Positions 9,548 through 58,400 of a stretch of 64,000 nucleotides of DNA are shown one piece after another. The translations under genes and the position numbers were made by a program. Numbering within the stretch: the first letter of the stretch is position 1; each line of letters opens with the position of its first letter. This DNA comes from Octopus sinensis (taxonomy: Eukaryota), in assembly GCF_006345805.1 (NCBI RefSeq), contig NC_043006.1, positions 66,092,001 through 66,156,000 on the forward strand, given 5' to 3'. The notes beneath the pieces were generated by a model. That model saw nothing but the letters and a program-made list of their open reading frames with translations, was not told the DNA's origin and made no database searches.

Positions 9548-11902
9548 TAGCAGTATCGCCCGGCGTTGCTCGGGTTTGTAAGGGAAATAACTATAAAGCA
9601 TTTTTAGAGAGTTATAGCCAAAACATAGCAAAAAAATGCATTAAAAATGGAAAAAAAATTATAGTAAATATTTTTTAAATCGTTGACTCATCGTAGACAT
9701 TTTTAGAGAGTTACTTCCCTTATATAATAGCAAAAAAATGCATTAAAATGGAAAAAAATGATGGTAAATTATTTTTAAAATCGTAGACGCGCGCTAATAC
9801 CCAGAAGGGCTCGATATGAATCACGACTATAAGATACCCGGTTTTGGTTAAACTGCACCGCAAAATGTGGGAGTAGTTAGGAATCTAAATCGTAGGAGAC
9901 AGACACACAACTTCACTTTTATATATAAAGATTTGTGCAACAACTAAAACATTCGGTTATGCAAATTGTTTGCACAGGAAACCTGCCCTGTGTGGCATTT
10001 TTGCCGTTTTTGTGGATCTGTTTCAGCTTTTTTAGCGATTTCTGTTTTGGCGACTTCAAGCCATGAAGTCGTTGTTCTAAAAGAACGCTGGTCTCCTTGA
10101 CAACGCTTTACGACGTTGATTTCCTTACACTCCCTTCCCCACAGCTTCACGAGGGAGGGAAGAAGGGGGAGAAGCAACACAGGTGCAGGTGTGAGCATGG
10201 ACGCCAACTCCGCCGCCATCGACACACGAAAAAATATGCGTTAAAATGGAAAAAAATGATGTTAAATTATTTTTAAAATCGTAGACTCATCGTAGACGCG
10301 CGCTAATACCCAGACGGGATCGATATGAATCACGACTATAAGAGATCCGAATTTGGTTAAACTGCACCGCAAAATGTGGGAGTAGTTAGGAATCTAAATC
10401 GTAGGAGACAGACACTCACACAACTTTACTTTTATATATAGACTAGCAGTATCACCCGGCGTTGCTCGGATTTGTAAGGGAAATAACTATATAAGCATTT
10501 TTAGAGAGTTACTTCCCTTATAGATGCTAATTCGGGCTTTCTTAGCCATTTCTGTTTTGGTGTCTTCAAGCCATGAAGTCGTTGTTCTAAAAGAACGCTG
10601 GTCTCCTTGACAACGCATTACGACGTTGATTTCTTTACACTCCCTTCCCCACAGCTTCACGAGGGAGGGAAGGGGGAGAAGCAAACAGGTGCAGCTGTGA
10701 GCGTGGACGCCAACTCCGCCGCCATCGACACACGAAAAATTATGCATTAAAATGGAATAAAAAATGATGTTAAATTATTTTTAAAATCGTAGACTCATCG
10801 TTGACGCGCGCTAATAGCCAGACGTGCTTGATATGAATCACGACTATAAGATACCCGAATTTGGTTAAACTGCACCGCAAAATGTGGGAGGTGTTAGGAA
10901 TCTAAATCGAAGGGGACAGACACTCACACGACTAGAGTTTTATATATATAGATATATATATGGTCTTATGCTATATGCGCACATATATGTGCGTGCGGCA
11001 ACGTGTGCGTGCGCCTGCGCAAAAGTGTGACTGCGCATGCGCAAACGTGTGATTGCGCATGCGCGAAAGTGTGACTGCGCATGCGCGAAGGTGCGACTGC
11101 GCATGCGCGAACGTGTGACTGCGCATGCGCGAATGTGTGACTGCGCATGCGCGAAGTTGCGACTGCGCATGCGTGAAAGTGTGACTGCGCATGCGTGAAA
11201 GTGTGACTGCGCATGCGCGAAAGTGTGACTGCGCCTGCGCGAACGTGTGCGTGCGCATGCGCGAACGTGTGTGTGCGCATGCGCGAAAGTGTGACTGCGC
11301 ATGCGTGAAAGTGTGACTGCGCATGCGCGAAAGTGTAACTGCGCCTGCGCGAACGTGTGCGTGCGCATGCGCGAACGTGTGTGTGCGCATGCGCGAACGT
11401 GTGACTGCGCATGCGCGAAAGTGTGACTGCGCATGCGCGAACTTGTGACTGCGCCTGCGCGAACGTGTGACTGCGCATGCGCGAAATTGTGACTGCGCAT
11501 GCGCGAACGTGTGCGTGCGCATGCGCGAACATGTGACTGCGCATACGCGACGTGTGCGTGCGCATGCGCGAACGTGTGACTGCGTACGCGCAAAAGTGTG
11601 ACTGCGCATGCGCAGTCACACTTTGCGAGGGAGGGAAGAAGGGGGAGAAGCAACACAGGTGCAGGTGTGAGCATGGACGCCAACTCCGCCGCCATCGACA
11701 CACGAAAAAATTGGAAGAAATGGAAAAAAATGATGTTAAATTATTTTTAAAATCGTAGACTCATCGTAGACGCGCGCTAATACCCAGACGGGCTCGATAT
11801 GAATCACGACTATAAGATACCCGAATTTGGTTAAACTGCACCGCAAGATGTGGGAGTAGTTAGGAATCTAAATCGTAGGAGACAGACACTCACACAACTT
11901 CA

Positions 11903-12530: not shown

Positions 12531-13557
12531 ATATATAAGAAAATAGTAAAGAGTGAAAAAACGACAGAAGGCTTAAATGTTAAAAAATATATATATTTGT
12601 GTCAAAATGTCTGGAGAATATTGGAAAAATTTTTTTCCTTTCCTTAAAATGACATAATTTCATAATTTTTAAAGAAATACCGGTTTCGCGTGTAGCTTTT
12701 CAAATTTCTTGTGACGTTATGTTTATATTGCATGGAGTTATCGTTGTGTTTATTTTCAGGAGATTTCTAAATAAGGGGAGGTAGTGAGTGATTTCTTCCG
12801 GTGTAAGGGAGATAATCGCTTAAAAATTTTTTTCCTTTCCCTTGTTAATTTCTCTTTGTCTGTATGTTCGGATGGTTGAGTCTGGGTTTGTACTTTTCAA
12901 TGAAGAATGTTTCCTTGTTCAGTCTCATTTGTGTTGATGATCCGAAAGCACATTGGTAAAATGGGAAGATTAAAAATTGTGGCAGTAGTTGCTTTGCGCA
13001 TTTCTCAATGTGTTCACTAAAAGGTATCATTCTATCTTTTAGTGAACACATTGAGAAATGCGCAAAGCAACTACTGCCACAATTTTTAATCTTCCCATTT
13101 TACCAATGTGCTTTCGGATCATCAACACAAATGAGACTGAACAAGGAAACATTCTTCATTGAAAAGTACAAACCCAGACTCAACCATCTGAACATACTGA
13201 CACAGAGAAATTAACAAGGGAAAGGAAAAAAAATTTTAAGCGATTATCTCCCTTACACCGGAAGAAATCACTCACTACCTCCCCTTATTTAGAAATCTCC
13301 TGAAAATAAACACAACGATAACTCCATGCAATATAAACATAACGTCACAAGAAATTTGAAAAGCTACACGCGAAACCGGTATTTCTTTAAAAATTATGAA
13401 ATTATGTCATTTTAAGGAAAGGAAAAAAATTTTTCCAATATTCTCCAGACATTTTGACACAAATATATATATTTTTTAACATTTAAGCCTTCTGTCGTTT
13501 TTTCACTCTTTACTATTTTCTTATATATTCACCCACGTGCTTTACCAAACAAACTTT

Positions 13558-13560
<3 letters not shown>
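12531..13560. mobile_element. Young PLE 3' end inserted as a near-perfect palindrome in (TA)n
   Basis: Arms 12531-13023 and 13036-13528 with a 12-nt spacer. Both encode the GIY-YIG C-terminus FSEHIEKCAKQLLPQFLIFPFYQ..RLNKETFFIEKYKPRLN. Confidence 0.9.
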
Positions 13561-13628: not shown

Positions 13629-14281
13629 CCGACACAGAAGCCGACAGTAAAAAAATGTGGAAGACCCAATTGCGGGATATGTGACTATCTAATTGAGGGA
13701 TCAGAGTTCTCCTTCAAACAGGGACAACGGTTTACAGTGAAAAGCAACTTCACATGTGCTTCGGAGAACCTAATATACTCACTAACCTGCTCCGGGTGTC
13801 AAGAGCAGTACATAGGCCAAACAAAAAATAGTTTGCGTAAACGAATGGCCCTGCACAGATCCCAGATAAAAATTCCCCAAAACAGAAAAATAGCTTTCAG
13901 CCAACACATAGATACTTGCGCCAACAACAAAACACCAGGCTTCAGGATTTTCCCCCTCTACCAATTTAGGGACGATACAACCTCGAGACAACGAATAAGT
14001 AAAGAAACTCTCTTTATTACAAAATACAGGCCACTTCTTAACGGGTCTACGACAAACGATTAATATACCTCAACTTTAGAATAAAAGAAATATACACACA
14101 CAAATATTACATTCCAAAAAATCCATTACTAATCAGCCCCAATCACAGCTATAATCCATAACATGCCAACTTCAAGTCATACAACACCTCACTACTTTCA
14201 CCCATTCATATTCTCCCTTCTATGTTTTCTTCTTCTTCCTCCTCTTCTTCTTCATCATCATCATTATCATCATCATCATCG

Positions 14282-21396: not shown

Positions 21397-21553
21397 TTAT
21401 TTACATTATTTATATTTGACGGATATTTGTCCTCATCTTTGTTGTTAACACAACGTTTCGGCTGATATACACTCCAGCCTTCATCAGGTGTCTTGGGAAA
21501 ATTTCGAATCTGGGTTCTCATTCCTAAGGTATTTTTCGATGTTGATGTTGTTG

Positions 21554-21595
<42 letters not shown>

Positions 21596-22701
21596 TCACT
21601 GTCTGGAATCTTGGGGTTAGTAGCCCGCGCTCTTAACCACTACACCATATGCTCATGAGCAATTATGGAGTGAATTTTAGTGCTTATAAATCTAATATTC
21701 TCCTGTCCTTCCTTAATACCGGTTCCCATATGCTGTTCATATCGGCACTCAGTCTGCTTAGGAGGTTGTTGTGTCCTAGCATATGTGCTGCTTCTTTTAG
21801 TTTTCATATTTTCCAGTGGTGTTCTCTGTCTATTATTTTAACTTCATCCCACAGGGGGAGGTGGTTTCCATTTTTCCACACATGATTATCTATACCCGAT
21901 TTATCAATATCTCCCCGTGTCACAGCTTTGCGATGTTCCTCTACCTTTATTTTGAGGGGACGGCATGTTTCAACTTTGTATAACCTACCACAAATGCATG
22001 GGATGGAGTACACGCAGTTCTTAGTCATATTCTCTTCTATTGGTGGTTTTATTCGAATGAGATATTTGCGAAGTGTTGTATTGCTCTTGAATACTGTCCT
22101 GATGTCATATGGGCCGTATATATTTTGTCTCTTTTCGGAGAGGCCTTTCACATAGGGTAGACAGACTGGACAGTTAATCGGTTTCATCCCCTCTTTTCTT
22201 CATAATTGGAGTGGATAGTATGCTTTTGGGGTAGTTGTTGCTTAAAATAATAGACAGAGAACACCACTAGAAAATATGAAAACTAAAAGAAGCAGCACAT
22301 ATGCTAGGACACAACAACCTCCTAAGCAGACTGAGTGCCGACATGAACAGCATATGGGAACCGGCATTAAGGAAGGACAGGAGAATATTAGATTTATAAG
22401 CCCTAAAAGTCACTCCATAATTGCTCATGAACATATGGTGTAGTGGTTAAGAGCGCGGGCTACTAACCCCAAGATTCCGTCTTCGATTCCAGGTAGTGAC
22501 CTGAACAACAATAACAGCAGCAGCAACAACATCGAAAAATACCTTAGGAATGAGAACCCTGGTTCGAAATTTCCCCAAGACACCTGATGAAGGCTTGGAG
22601 GGTATATCAACTGAAACGTTGTATAACAACAAACAAGATGAGGACAAATATCTGTCAAATGTAAATAATGTACATAATTCCTCATCTCTTAAATATAGAA
22701 C
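21397..22701 (-). mobile_element. 5'-truncated PLE with inverted pseudo-LTR
   Basis: ORF 21804..22187 reads KNCVYSIPCICGRLYKVETCRPLKIKVEEH (GIY-YIG). ~21397-21840 is mirrored at ~22250-22700. 14-bp flanking repeat TGA(C/T)AGATTTTAGA (21383-21396 and 22702-22715). Confidence 0.9.
21447..21492 (-). ncRNA. Minimal type I hammerhead ribozyme
   Basis: GACAC-CTGATGA-A-GGCTG-gagtgtatat-CAGCC-GAAAC-GTT-GTGTT. Confidence 0.8.
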
Positions 22702-23449: not shown

Positions 23450-23972
23450 CATTATTTACATTATTTATATTATTTACATTTGACGGATATTTGCCCTCAT
23501 GTTGTTTGTTATTAATACAACGTTTCGGCTGATACAACCTCCAGCCTTCATCAGGTGCCTTGGGGAAATTTCGAACATGGGGATTATTATTATCATTATT
23601 ATTCAGGTCACTGCCTGGAATCGAACTCAGAATCTTAGGGTTAGTAGTCCGCGCTCTTAACCACTACGCCATATGCCCGTGGGCCATAACCACTATGCCA
23701 TACGCCCACGGGATATGGCCTAGTGGTTAAGAGCGCAGGCTACTAATCCCAAGATTCCGAGTTCGATTCCAGGCAGTGACCTGAATAATAATAACATCGA
23801 AAAATACCTTAGGAATGAGAACCCAGGTTCGAAATTTCCCCAAGACACCTGATGAAGGCTGGAGGGTATATCAGCCGAAACGTTGTGTTAACAACTAACA
23901 AGATGAGGACAAATATCCATCAAATGTAAATAATTTACATAATTCATCATCTCTCAAATATAGAACTGTGAA
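23450..23972. mobile_element. ORF-less palindromic PLE derivative (two tRNA-like plus hammerhead modules, head to head) inserted in a SINE
   Basis: 10-bp TSD ATCGAGCTAA (23440-23449 and 23973-23982). The arms match the pseudo-LTR of the 21397-22701 element. Confidence 0.85.
23844..23889 (+). ncRNA. Minimal type I hammerhead ribozyme
   Basis: GACAC-CTGATGA-A-GGCTG-gagggtatat-CAGCC-GAAAC-GTT-GTGTT. Confidence 0.8.
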
Positions 23973-27797: not shown

Positions 27798-28252
27798 CAG
27801 TGGCGGACTGGGTCTAAAATATTGGTTACCAGGCGACTAAGGGGGCCCACCCGCAACTACAAGAGGGCCCACCCGCAACTACAAGGGGGCCCACCCGCAA
27901 CTACAAGGGGGCCCACCCGCAGCTACAAGAGAGCCCACCCGCAACTACAAGGGAGCCAACAGGCAGCTATAAGGGAGCCCATCCGCAACTACAAGGGGAT
28001 CAACCGCAACTACAAGGGGGGCAGCTACAATGCTATCATTTAATTTTTTTGTTAAAAATATTCTTTTCAACTGTCTACAAACACAGCTAGGCTGGAGTAA
28101 TTTATGCATTCTTCCAAGAGTGAATAAAAAAATTCTCAAACTTGAGGGGATGGGCCCCTTAGATATTAACATGAGTCCCCATATATGGATTCTAATAACG
28201 CAGGGGCCCACTTGCCATCGAGAAAGCTGACAAACTGGTCAGTCCGCTACTG
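27798..28252. mobile_element. hAT MITE with an internal 22-bp tandem repeat
   Basis: TIR CAGT(G/A)GCGGACTG; 8-bp TSD GTAATGGG / GTAAAGGG; (GGGGGCCCACCCGCAACTACAA)n at ~27841-28030. Confidence 0.85.
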
Positions 28253-48447: not shown

Positions 48448-49005
48448 TTGAAGCAGTCTTGCGTTGTGTTGACAAACTTGCACTTAAAATTCCTGCATTT
48501 CAAATCAAAACTCATTAGTTACTATGGTGGCAACACTACTTACCTTTCATACAATATACTTTCTTTATTACTCTCTCTCTCTCACAAACTATTTCTCCCT
48601 CAACAACAACTTTTTCTTCTCTCTTCTAAATGCACGTTGTGACGTATATTTTGATTCCTCCTCTTCTGTCCCTCCATATAATAGATATTGTGACGGACAT
48701 ACAGACAGAGGTTTGCTTCTCTTCAACAACTTTTCTCCCCCTTCTTCTAAATACACGTTGTGACGTATATTATGATCACCCGCTTCTTTCTTCCCCGTAA
48801 TAGATTTTGCAATAGACAGACAGACGAAGAGCCGCTTCTCTTTTATGATATAAAATTGTATTTTTATGTTCACAAATGGCCATTCACCAATATTTTATAT
48901 CTTTAATCTGTTTATTGTAAATAAGTTATGTGTAACAATGGGATACGTAATCACTGGATTAATATATAGTAATCTTAGCTCTACAATAAATGTTTATATA
49001 TATAT

Positions 49006-49261
49006 ATCGTTGGTATTATGCAAACGTGTCGTAAGTCCAAAAAGTTGCTTTTTCAGAAAACGAAAAAAATAGTTTCACCATTCCATAGCAAAACTGTTGT
49101 ACTAGATTTTAACAATTTTTGATACCTTGGCATCTGAAGCAACTGGAGATACGATAGTTTAACCAAAAGAACCGGCTATTGTAAGGAAAAATAAATATTG
49201 AAAAAAAAAAACGCATTTGTCCAAATTTGGACATACGACAGTTTATCGTAATAGCAACGAT
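49006..49261. mobile_element. MITE with imperfect ~35-bp TIRs and TA flanks
   Basis: ATCGTTGGTATTATGCAAACGTGTCGTAAGTCCAA versus TTGGACATACGACAGTTTATCGTAATAGCAACGAT. Confidence 0.65.
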
Positions 49262-49450
49262 ATAAAATTAATGTAGACAGCAGTGTGCAATGTTTTACCA
49301 AAAAGGAAAACCATAATTGACACTAAATGTGACTAGAGTGCTAGAAACACCTACATTACAAGAAACAAGAGCTAAAATGCTTTAATGCTGTAGTCAAAGC
49401 ACATAATTGTTTACATATGTACAGACAAGGATTATAATCGACCGAAAACA

Positions 49451-49530
49451 CCGATCGAGAATTCCCTACACTGATCGGTCAGTTTCGGCAATTTCCGTTG
49501 CCTCATCAGTAAGGACTGGCTCGACTACGG
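49451..49530 (-). ncRNA. Full-length type I hammerhead ribozyme motif with a GUG site
   Basis: TCGAG-ccag-TCCTTA-CTGATGA-GGCAA-cggaaa-TTGCC-GAAA-CTGA-ccga-TCAG-T-G-TAGGGA-att-CTCGA. Confidence 0.85.
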
Positions 49531-49636
49531 CAAATTTCGGACTTAATTCTCTGTCGGTATATATGTTTCCGTCGTAAAAATCTATGGATGATTAGCGAAT
49601 CGCTATATACACAGACAGATAGGCACACACACACAC

Positions 49637-49830
49637 ATCTATTATATAAAATCCGTTCTGTCTGTCTGTGTGTATGTCTTCTAGGATCTCGAGCATCCTC
49701 CATCCGATTGCGCTCAAATTCGATATGCAGATACCGACGGTATTAGGGCGTGTATAAGTCTTGAAAAAATTACAAAAATCGATTCCCGGTGAGAATGCGA
49801 TCGAAAAAGCCGTGGGAACATGCCAAGCTT
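49637..49830 (+). mobile_element. Helitron/DINE-like 5' fragment; a similar duplicated fragment lies at ~48640-48855 (-)
   Basis: TCTATTATATAAAA start, (GTCT)n, and a CATCCGATTGCGCTCAAATT core. Confidence 0.5.
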
Positions 49831-50106
49831 ACTGTTTAAACCATGTTTGTGTTCTCCCAGTCAACAGCTTATCATTACTGGTACTTTAAACTCTTCGGTT
49901 GCATATTTGTGTGAATAAAATCGTTTTTCTTTGTAATAGAAAAAAGTCTATCTTTATTTCTGCTTTTGCTGGTGTCTCAAATTTAGGTTAAATCAGTGTT
50001 TCTCAAAGGGGATGCCTGTGGGACGGTCGGACAAGTTGTTTTGAGAAAATTTGGTTTAAATGTTTGACAACTCAGCACCATCCAATGGACGGGGAGCGTT
50101 TTGCTC

Positions 50107-50137
<31 letters not shown>

Positions 50138-55915: not shown

Positions 55916-57014
55916 TAATAATAATAAATAACGGTGTTGAAAAGGATGATGATGATGATGATGACTGCGGTTATTGCTTGTTTTTTGGCTTCCTATTTAA
56001 TTTTTTTCTTTTCATTTAAACGAAAGGATTTAGAATTTTCTTATTTTATTTCATACAAAAAAAAATACAAAAAAATAAAATTATATTCTAAAATAAAATA
56101 TCTGCCTCAGTTTCCTTTTACAATCTTTTTTTTCCCTTTTTCGAAATGTTTTCACTTTACTGTTTTCAATTTCGTTTTGTCATTGAAGTCTTCAAAATTT
56201 TTTGACTTTCAGTCACGGCTACGGATACATCCGTTCCATCTCCACCATCCCACATATTCCAAGTATTTATTTATTTATTTATTTAACTCAATTATTACTT
56301 CACTTAACTATTTAGTTTAAGCAATTTTCTATTATTTTTACCACAGCTGGTGTTTTCCGCTTTCGTTTCTGTTTTAATTTTTATTAAATTTTGATATTGC
56401 GTTTTTCCTTTTGAATTTTAATCTCATATATTATTTTCGTATTTTAGCTCTTATTTTCGTATTTTATCATATATATTATTACTTTCGTGTTTTACATTTT
56501 TTATTTATGTACTTTATATATTTCATTTTCGTATTTTATGTTATATCCTATTATTTTTATATTTGTTTCACTATTTTTACGTTTTTGTTTAGCACAAATA
56601 TATTTTAATTACTCATCTGTTGAACGTGATTTCAGGAACAGAGTGGACAATGAAAAATGCAAGTTCAACGTGCCACCACAGTCACACTGTGACATCTCGC
56701 TACTCTATGGTTGATCTACTTCCTTGTAATAACAGCCAAATCTCCCTCAAATCATTCTTTACAATCTTCAAAGAAAGGAAGGATATTTTGGAGACTGTAG
56801 TCTGTTATAAACTATCAGGAGTGTGTGACTGGTCATGGTTTCACTGTCTGAATATAAATCTGTTCGACGAAGGCTGATGGATGGCAAAGCGAGATTCTTA
56901 ACTACACATCTATGTCTGGACCTATAAATTCGACTGCTATTTCTAGCAGATTGTTTGATTATTAATTCTTTACCATTGTTGTTTGATGTTTATATATACA
57001 CACACAGATATATA

Positions 57015-58400
57015 TATTGAAATTTACAGAAAAAACAAAGGACGAAGACAGGTGTATGAATAACAAGCAAGTGTATTTAAGTTTGACACTCGGGAAAGTG
57101 AGAAAGTCTTACGTTGGGAGCCTACGCTGTACAACAGAAAGGAATAAAAGAAAATAAACAGAGAGAGAATAAAAAAAAACTTGTGGATTTTACGGTCAAG
57201 CATGATGACTGGTTAAGGAAAAAAGTTTCACAGTAGAGGTAGAAAGAAGGGGAAATAATAAAGTATTGGTGATTCCCAAACGGAGGTGCGCGTGCGTGTG
57301 TGTGTGCATGTGAGAATGTGTGTTTGTGTGGATAGTGACTTTGACGTCTGTGGATTTGTGCGTCTGTAATGTGTGGGTGTGCAGATAATGGCGTGTGGAG
57401 TAGGTGCTGGGAAGTGGTCAGTGCTGGTGTGGTGGTGTGGGTGCATGGGGGATGTTGGGGTAGGAGTATGGGTAGGGACGTGGGTGTGGTGTGGGTGGAG
57501 GGTATCAATGGAGAGAAGGTGGGTGGGAGTGAAGAGAGGAAATAGGTGTCAGAGGAAGAAAGGTGGGTGGAGTGGAGAGGAAGTAGGTGTCAGCTGAAGA
57601 GGGGAGGGGAGTTGAGCCCATGTGACGCAAAGGAGTGAAGAGAGAAGATTAATTCCTGTTTACGGCGAATGTAGGGGTCTCGGATGCCTCCTGTGCAAAG
57701 ACAATCCGAACGCAGACAGGTGTTGTAGTGAATGACCGATAGAACGGAAATGGCACGAGACCAGAGTGTCATTGCCGAGTGTGATGTCTCGGAGGTGCTC
57801 CGCGAACCGGTCAGCCAAGTGGCGTCCCGTTTGACCGATGTACAGATAAGGACAGAAAGAGTAAGAGATGCAGTAAATGACGTTGCTAGAAGTGCAGGCA
57901 AAGGAGTCTGTGTTATGATAGGGACGATGATGGGTGCCTGTGAGGATGGTGTTGGAGAGGTAGGGTCAAGTGCGGAGCGTTGCGGGAGCAGGGGAATGAG
58001 CCAGGTTGGGAGAATGGGTTAGGGAAGAAACTGTGGACCAGGAGGTCACACAGGTTGTGGGCTCGTTTGAAGGGAGAAGGGACAGGTTGGGGAAGATGTG
58101 CGAGGTGGAGGGGTCGGACTGGAGTCGCCGGAAGGCTCGGAGAATGGTGCACTATAGGGGCAGATTGGAAAGTGATAGGTGAGGGGGAAACGGGAGACGG
58201 GAAATGGCGGGGCGGGGGCGGGAAGAGAGAGAAGAGTCACGGTTCATGGAACGTTTTCTGGCAAGGGCTGTGAGGTTAGTGGTGAGGGGATATCCATAAG
58301 GGATGAAGTGGCGAGCCATGAGTTGAGACTGAGTTTCAAAGTCATGGTTGTCGCTACAGAGCCTGCATAGACGGAGAAATTGGAAGCAGGGGATGGAGAG
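57015..58400 (-). mobile_element. Neptune-type PLE 3' remnant
   Basis: Minus strand PGSFPCSR.. then SFACTSSNVIYCISYSFCPYLYIGQTGRHLADRFAEH and RRKQELIFSLHSFASHGLN, followed by a C-rich UTR and the pseudo-LTR. Confidence 0.85.

What the first reader, a model, noticed from the sequence alone, without database searches (positions are those of the whole stretch)
49451..49530. Full-length canonical hammerhead in an otherwise anonymous region
Seen on the minus strand: perfect CUGAUGA/GAAA core, 6-bp stem I (UCCUUA/UAGGGA) extended past a CCAG/AUU internal loop by UCGAG/CUCGA, 5-bp stem II and a stable 5-bp stem III. It could fold as a monomer, unlike minimal PLE motifs. The cleavage triplet is GUG, which breaks the NUH rule. 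No ORF or second copy is evident in the surrounding ~49270-49600 segment. Inference: a retrozyme-like or pLTR unit, either inactivated at N17 or an atypical site.
Basis: partly seen in the sequence, partly recalled or inferred. Interest (0 to 1): 0.78.

Follow-up and report, generated by a model that had tools for sequence, protein, structure and literature searches.

The report
Decayed hammerhead in old retrozyme repeat
This is a real hammerhead-ribozyme fold inside one old copy of a ~350-base repeat scattered through this animal genome; most sister copies have the cleavable GUA site, so the odd GUG here is likely an ordinary mutation that silenced a fossil copy of a retrozyme-type mobile element.

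Summary
The hammerhead is real: one strict type I hit in the window, 0 of 300 shuffles. The region is not anonymous. Window 49263-49620 (minus) is one ~350-nt unit of a dispersed non-coding family (659-1947 first-look candidates) with three subfamilies whose stems change in compensating pairs around a constant core. N17 is A in 138 of 162 copies and G in 12, spread over the tree, so GUG is a private decay, not a new cleavage rule. No copy pair is above 91% identical, so the family looks extinct. Insertions look like those of Penelope-like elements: a preferred 3' end on (TA)n, variable 5' ends, inverted 5' pieces (31 of 110) and partial tandems under two units that read through the cleavage site. 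I read it as a fossil monomer of a non-LTR retrozyme / non-autonomous Penelope-like family, likely copied from a circular or multimeric RNA. The autonomous partner was not found; cleavage and circular RNA were not testable. New member of a known kind; low interest.

The parts
49263..49620 (-). One ~350-nt unit of the dispersed retrozyme-type repeat (subfamily A), a solo monomer; ends approximate to about 5 nt
   Evidence: BLAST of paralogues stops at 49605-49619 and 49259-49264; head-to-tail joint 49593 to 49264 in other copies; 25 of 330 columns differ from the subfamily majority
49455..49524 (-). Full-length type I hammerhead fold, with distal helix and internal loop in stem I
   Evidence: covariation
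49503..49509 (-). Core CUGAUGA (C3-A9), intact
49483..49486 (-). Core GAAA (G12-A15.1), intact
49469..49471 (-). Cleavage triplet GUG; N17 at 49469 is G here, A in the family
49003..49264 (.). Separate high-copy element with 39-nt terminal inverted repeats (MITE-like; label from recall) sitting between the unit's 3' end and a (TA)n run at about 48995-49004; likely inserted into the unit's (TA)n target
49621..49637 (.). (CA/TG)n run at the 5' side of the unit

Best explanation
The motif is the type I hammerhead of one old, protein-less ~350-nt repeat copy whose family site is GUA, and its GUG is likely a neutral post-insertion mutation that would stop cleavage. Shown: hundreds to thousands of dispersed relatives, three subfamilies with compensating stem changes, star-like decay, a preferred (TA)n-joined 3' end about 200 nt past the cleavage site, inverted 5' pieces, and copies that run through the cleavage site for up to 1.8 units. 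Inferred mechanism for the family: source copies were transcribed as more than one unit, self-cleaved at GUA to unit length and were likely circularised; the RT and GIY-YIG endonuclease of an autonomous Penelope-like element nicked a (TA)n target, primed on the AU-rich stretch of the unit and copied round the circle (or along an uncut multimer) until it dropped off or switched strand. The integrated monomers then decayed. This copy is predicted to do nothing now.
For: Family and copy number: (659, 1200, 898, 1947 first-look candidates; 40 scored each; best non-self hits 78-84%). N17: A 138, G 12, U 10, C 2 of 162; 30 A, 5 G, 4 U, 2 C of 41 with N17 left free, G on both stem-I haplotypes (my tally). 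G17 copies: 7 of 94 in five places of the tree; the window copy shares only 2 derived states with its G17 neighbour, against up to 5 with others. Covariation: 36 of 125 rows, 89.6% of cells paired, 82 two-sided changes against 32.7 +/- 5.3, slid controls 23-45% paired. Decay: nearest-neighbour identity median 0.85, maximum 0.91; strand-symmetric spectrum, A>G 4.4% against T>C 4.0%, p = 0.15; 39 of 95 rows keep full core plus NUH. Insertion anatomy: 14 of 30 loci found with a central query end at unit positions 228-254; over 110 loci 31 have an inverted 5' piece, 58 exceed one unit, longest 642 nt. Penelope-like elements of this genome end on (TA)n too and carry inversions, as described in PMC8557442 (passages). 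GUG sites did not cleave in PMC4191386 and PMC3138052 (passages); C3-G17 pairing probability 0.48 here.
Against: No autonomous element sharing sequence with the unit was found: three to four Penelope-like families inspected have unrelated 3' ends and only minimal hammerhead-like motifs. No array of two full units or more was found, whereas published retrozymes are dimers to multimers. N17 is changed more often than other A columns (24 of 162 against 8.3%, p = 0.006; against 9.9% in TAT context, p = 0.047), mainly in subfamily A (14 of 68), which pure neutral decay does not fully explain. The window copy is sister to another G17 copy at support 0.878. Only two of four natural units fold better than shuffles as circles (z -3.1, -2.8, -1.0, -0.9). 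The B and C queries ended at the preferred 3' end, which inflates that peak in the 110-locus count.
Confidence: 0.8

Rival explanations
1. The unit is a solo pseudo-LTR of an old autonomous Penelope-like element: ordinary 5'-truncated copies of a protein-coding element, with no independent circular-RNA life.
For: Same (TA)n 3' end, 5' truncation, inversion and partial tandem as Penelope-like elements. Xenopus retrozymes share sequence with pLTRs (10.64898/2026.07.22.740005). Searches scored only the best 40 candidates each.
Against: In 110 loci the sequence 5' of the unit is either more of the same unit or unrelated flank, never a shared ORF; five loci with Penelope-type protein matches have them on the other strand, behind (TA)n or behind other repeats. 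The hammerhead is full length, unlike the minimal motifs in the pLTRs seen here and described in PMC6155905.
Confidence: 0.1
2. G17 arose in the RNA template before insertion (A-to-I editing opposite C3, or an error at the ligation junction), giving cleavage-resistant circles that were copied preferentially.
For: N17 is changed about 1.5-1.8 times more often than other A columns (p 0.006 to 0.047); A>G is 9 of 68 in subfamily A, among the top 6 of 83 A columns.
Against: No A>G over T>C asymmetry in the unit (p = 0.15); G at N17 alone is not significant in context (p = 0.21); U is almost as common as G; subfamilies B and C show no excess; the window copy itself was the query.
Confidence: 0.06
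3. The copy is an active hammerhead with an atypical GUG site, kept or co-opted at this locus.
For: Core and all stems are intact in this copy, and it is the closest to the subfamily majority of 42 copies (7.6% against a mean of 11.7%, biased because it was the query).
Against: No compensating core change; family site is GUA; 39 of 95 decayed rows keep an intact core by chance of age, so intactness needs no selection; GUG did not cleave in the papers read.
Confidence: 0.04

Closest known systems
Metazoan non-LTR retrozymes (Cervera and de la Pena 2020, PMC7229834; e.g. the 350-390 bp mussel repeats)
   Same: Full-length type I hammerhead in a 340-355-nt, low-GC (34-40%), protein-less unit; head-to-tail organisation; thousands of copies; coexistence with Penelope-like elements bearing minimal hammerheads.
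   Different: Here only monomers and partial tandems below two units were found, all old; no circular RNA shown; this copy has G17. I did not compare sequences with the published families.
Retrozyme monomers / non-autonomous derivatives of Penelope-like elements (Li, Clavereau and Pollet, bioRxiv 10.64898/2026.07.22.740005)
   Same: Dispersed solo monomers beside tandem forms; inferred mobilisation by Penelope-like machinery; most genomic copies inactive (8 of 9 Xenopus dimers did not cleave in that paper).
   Different: That work shows sequence kinship with pLTRs in frogs; here kinship is seen only in insertion anatomy, and no partner with shared sequence was found.
Endonuclease-bearing Penelope-like elements, Neptune type (PMC8557442)
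   Same: (TA)n target, 5' truncation, inverted 5' piece, partial tandem, hammerhead upstream of the 3' end.
   Different: No RT or GIY-YIG frame; full-length instead of minimal hammerhead.
Type I hammerheads of Schistosoma Sm-alpha and newt satellite DNA (PMC6155905)
   Same: Type I topology, internal loop in stem I able to meet loop II, location in short repetitive DNA.
   Different: Longer, stable stem III; GUA family site; tertiary contacts not tested here.

Membership tests
Type I hammerhead ribozyme | Conserved core C3-A9, G12-A15.1, U16.1 | tested here: met
Type I hammerhead ribozyme | Three helices, stem I open, supported by covariation | tested here: met
   two-sided changes in all four helices between subfamilies
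Type I hammerhead ribozyme | N17 = A, C or U | tested here: not met
   This copy has G; the family meets it, 150 of 162. The copy is therefore filed as a decayed fold, not an active ribozyme
Type I hammerhead ribozyme | Score above an Rfam hammerhead gathering cut-off | tested here: not met
   Hammerhead_3, 28.1 bits against 48.5; only the best clan match is shown
Type I hammerhead ribozyme | Self-cleavage; loop I-loop II tertiary contact | not testable with these tools
   needs an in vitro assay
Non-LTR retrozyme | Type I hammerhead within a 150-450-bp, low-GC, non-coding unit | tested here: met
   units of 353, 348 and 339 nt, GC 0.34-0.40; no ORF of 100 aa
Non-LTR retrozyme | Tandem dimers or multimers with a hammerhead in each unit | tested here: inconclusive
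   Loci with two hammerheads one unit apart exist (L005, L007, L023, L055, L101, L118, L120, L135) but none reaches two full units; arrays may be collapsed in the assembly or missed among unscored candidates
Non-LTR retrozyme | Expression as linear and circular RNA | not testable with these tools
   only assembled contigs were on offer
Non-LTR retrozyme | No LTR, primer-binding site or polypurine tract | not tested
   no LTR-like flanks seen; PBS and PPT were not searched
pLTR of an autonomous Penelope-like element | Joined to an RT plus GIY-YIG reading frame | tested here: not met
   0 of 110 loci, searched with two Penelope-type proteins from this genome
pLTR of an autonomous Penelope-like element | Microsatellite target, 5' truncation, inverted 5' piece, partial tandem | tested here: met

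The most novel reading that the evidence does not exclude
The family is a fossil record of circular-RNA retrotransposition: copies primed at a fixed AU-rich point on (TA)n, ran round a ribozyme-made circle through the ligation site, and carry an excess of changes exactly at N17, left by editing or by copying across the junction; G17 copies such as this one would be cleavage-resistant circles caught in the act.
Probability: 0.08. Interest if true: 0.65.

Novelty: new member of a known kind. Interest (0 to 1): 0.24.

Why it matters
The GUG site does not point to new ribozyme chemistry. The modest value lies in the family: an invertebrate retrozyme-type repeat whose insertions carry Penelope-like marks ((TA)n end, 5' inversion, read-through of the cleavage site). 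That bears on the open question of which enzyme mobilises animal retrozymes, which the 2026 preprint addressed mainly in vertebrates. Three subfamilies also give a natural covariation set for a full-length type I hammerhead.

Tried and rejected
Rfam at gathering level: no match in the window. Expression: no RNA holder listed; runs guessed to be RNA gave only low-depth contigs of family relatives, so nothing is concluded on transcription or circles; the head-to-tail joint was seen in runs X4, X5, X6 of unknown kind and also stands in genomic loci, so it is no sign of circular RNA. State of N17 in orthologous copies of other individuals: not resolved, contigs were short and ended near the site. 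Long tandem arrays: none among 40 scored of 1947 candidates. Autonomous partner: a young 784-aa RT + GIY-YIG family, the families next to L040 and L055 and the older family at window 57300-58100 share no meaningful sequence with the unit; the RT piece near L154 is separated by other repeats. G17 sublineage: rejected. Editing signature across the unit: not found. Earlier scan notes: none. One search ended in a script error and was repeated.

Full report
Observation. In that fold stem I is extended by a C3-G17 pair. A strict type I descriptor hits once in the 64-kb window, at 49509 with N17 = G at 49469, and in 0 of 300 dinucleotide shuffles. Rfam has no gathering-level match; the best weak match is Hammerhead_3, 28.1 bits, E 7.5e-4. 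No ORF of 100 aa overlaps the segment.

The region is a repeat. The window lies in a 2.72-Gb genome (G000), rich in microsatellites; that the host is a cephalopod is my guess from recall and comes from no call. A 201-base query gave 659 first-look candidates, 40 scored, best non-self identity 84%. Similarity covers window 49260-49619 and stops there. In many paralogues the sequence matching 49264 is joined directly to that matching 49605, so the unit is circularly permuted and 339-353 nt long. Two further subfamilies were found. Relatives also stand in runs labelled as organisms A to D.

Structure is conserved at family level. In 125 hammerhead rows the majority core is the same in all three subfamilies except the free position 7, while the commonest pair type switches between subfamilies at 2.2-1.2, 2.3-1.3, 2.4-1.4, 10.4-11.4, 10.5-11.5, 15.5-16.5, one distal pair and partly 15.3-16.3 (subfamilies assigned by motif and source search, and recovered as groups in the tree). 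On 36 of these 125 rows (12 a subfamily, my pick) 89.6% of cells pair, 82 cells change on both sides against 32.7 +/- 5.3 in shuffles (0 of 500), and slid controls pair at 23-45%. Cells count sequences, not events: the independent events are about eight. The source elements were therefore under selection for the fold.

The GUG triplet. Among copies with intact core and stems II-III, the genome holds 29 GUA, 3 GUG (this one included), 2 GUU and 0 GUC. With N17 free and the 3' side fixed: 30 A, 5 G, 4 U, 2 C of 41, G falling on both stem-I haplotypes (my tally). Pooled over 163 non-redundant copies, 162 with a letter: A 138, G 12, U 10, C 2. In a tree of 94 units the 7 G17 copies fall in five places; the window copy pairs with L063 at 0.878, but shares with it only G17 and one common polymorphism, fewer derived states than with 15 other copies. 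No compensating change accompanies G17. GUG mutants of ten designed hammerheads did not cleave, and pairing of G17 with C3 was suggested as the cause (PMC4191386, passages; also PMC3138052, passages); that pair has probability 0.48 here. Against a purely neutral reading, N17 is changed in 24 of 162 copies, above the 8.3% of other A columns (p = 0.006) and the 9.9% of TAT-context columns (p = 0.047); the excess sits in subfamily A, G alone is not significant (p = 0.21), and there is no A>G strand asymmetry (p = 0.15). Background columns excluded the pattern region, CpG columns and polymorphic columns. I keep this as a weak, unexplained signal.

Age. Nearest-neighbour identity has median 0.85 and maximum 0.91 in 94 units; subfamily A copies lie 11.7% from their majority on average, this one 7.6%. 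39 of 95 rows from DNA searches keep the full core and an NUH site, so an intact core needs no present selection. No young copy was seen in four DNA searches, each scoring 40 candidates.

Insertion anatomy. Of 124 loci, 14 duplicates were dropped and 110 mapped on the unit. 14 of the 30 loci found with a central query end at unit positions 228-254, about 200 nt past the cleavage site, where about 2 would be expected from random ends; over all 110, 76 end at 210-259, a figure inflated by queries that ended there and blurred by a deletion in the C reference. 39 of 53 ends at 225-262 run into a TA-type microsatellite, against 17 of the other 57. 5' ends are spread with no pile-up at the cleavage site; 31 loci have an inverted 5' piece; 58 exceed one unit; the longest is 642 nt. 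The window copy fits: its 3' end abuts an element with 39-nt inverted repeats (49003-49264) beyond which lies (TA)n. These are the marks described for endonuclease-bearing Penelope-like elements (PMC8557442, passages), and such elements here end on (TA)n as well. Because copies span the cleavage site and more than one unit, the template was a circle or an uncut multimer (inference).

Partner. A young family encodes a 784-aa RT + GIY-YIG protein with a Cys motif before the nuclease, which suggests the Neptune type (from; no tree was built). It and three other Penelope-like families seen share no meaningful sequence with the unit and carry, by eye, only minimal hammerhead-like motifs. Five of 110 loci have Penelope-type protein matches nearby, none continuous with the unit. 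The mobilising element is thus inferred, not identified.

Comparison with print. Non-LTR retrozymes are 150-450-bp low-GC repeats with type I hammerheads, expressed as circles in coral, mussel and axolotl (PMC7229834: passages and one results section). A 2026 preprint derives them from Penelope-like elements and describes dispersed monomers (10.64898/2026.07.22.740005: parts 1-3 of 5, abstract to discussion). PMC6155905 was read in passages. Searches for hammerhead or retrozyme with the guessed host names and a general one listed no description of this family; I saw listings only for the other papers, opened no supplement, and had no Repbase or Dfam, where the repeat may already be catalogued.

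Verdict. A real hammerhead fold in a fossil monomer of a retrozyme-type, non-autonomous Penelope-like family; G17 is most likely decay (0.8). New member of a known kind; interest 0.24.

Noticed in passing
window 21446-21487 (-), 22584-22625 (+), 23510-23554 (-), 23849-23897 (+): Four copies of another short repeat with a CUGAUGA...GAAA core, a 5-bp stem II and a very short stem III, each preceded by an (AAC)/(AAT)n run; looks like a minimal hammerhead family of a different Penelope-like element.
   Followed up: partly
window 12550-13560: Inverted pair of 3' fragments of a young Penelope-like family (93-97% aa to L040) ending on (TA)n; by eye a minimal hammerhead-like motif with U3/A8 in place of C3/G8 and a GUA site at about 13351-13385.
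   Followed up: partly
window 13647-14060 (+) and downstream: 5'-truncated copy of a very young, very abundant RT + GIY-YIG family (19546 first-look candidates, 150 scored at 94-100% aa; intact 784-aa frames in L127-L130); its 3' end carries a U3/A8 minimal hammerhead-like motif.
   Followed up: partly
window about 56900-58400 (-): Decayed copy of an older Penelope-like family (GIY-YIG fragment 57660-57962; paralogues 76-85% identical) ending on (TA)n with a U3 minimal hammerhead-like motif; same age as the retrozyme family but no shared sequence.
   Followed up: partly
window about 49638-50109 (+): Very high-copy repeat (depth far above the retrozyme unit, also in run X1) starting TC after an A, with (CTGT)n near the start and a hairpin near the end; resembles a non-autonomous Helitron (label from recall).
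   Followed up: no
window 49003-49264; L108 3' flank: The same inverted-repeat element follows the unit's 3' end in the window and in L108, presumably because both use TA targets.
   Followed up: no
L040, L055, L067/L132: Retrozyme-type copies and Penelope-like copies sit on either side of one (TA)n run, in different orders and strands: nested use of the same target.
   Followed up: partly
window 11000-11613, 27839-28020, 48604-48842: Minisatellites: 28 copies of a 22-mer, 8 copies of another 22-mer, and a 119-nt duplication.
   Followed up: no
window 49450-49463 and 49545-49558: A 14-nt inverted repeat flanks the hammerhead and could extend or compete with the distal stem I.
   Followed up: no
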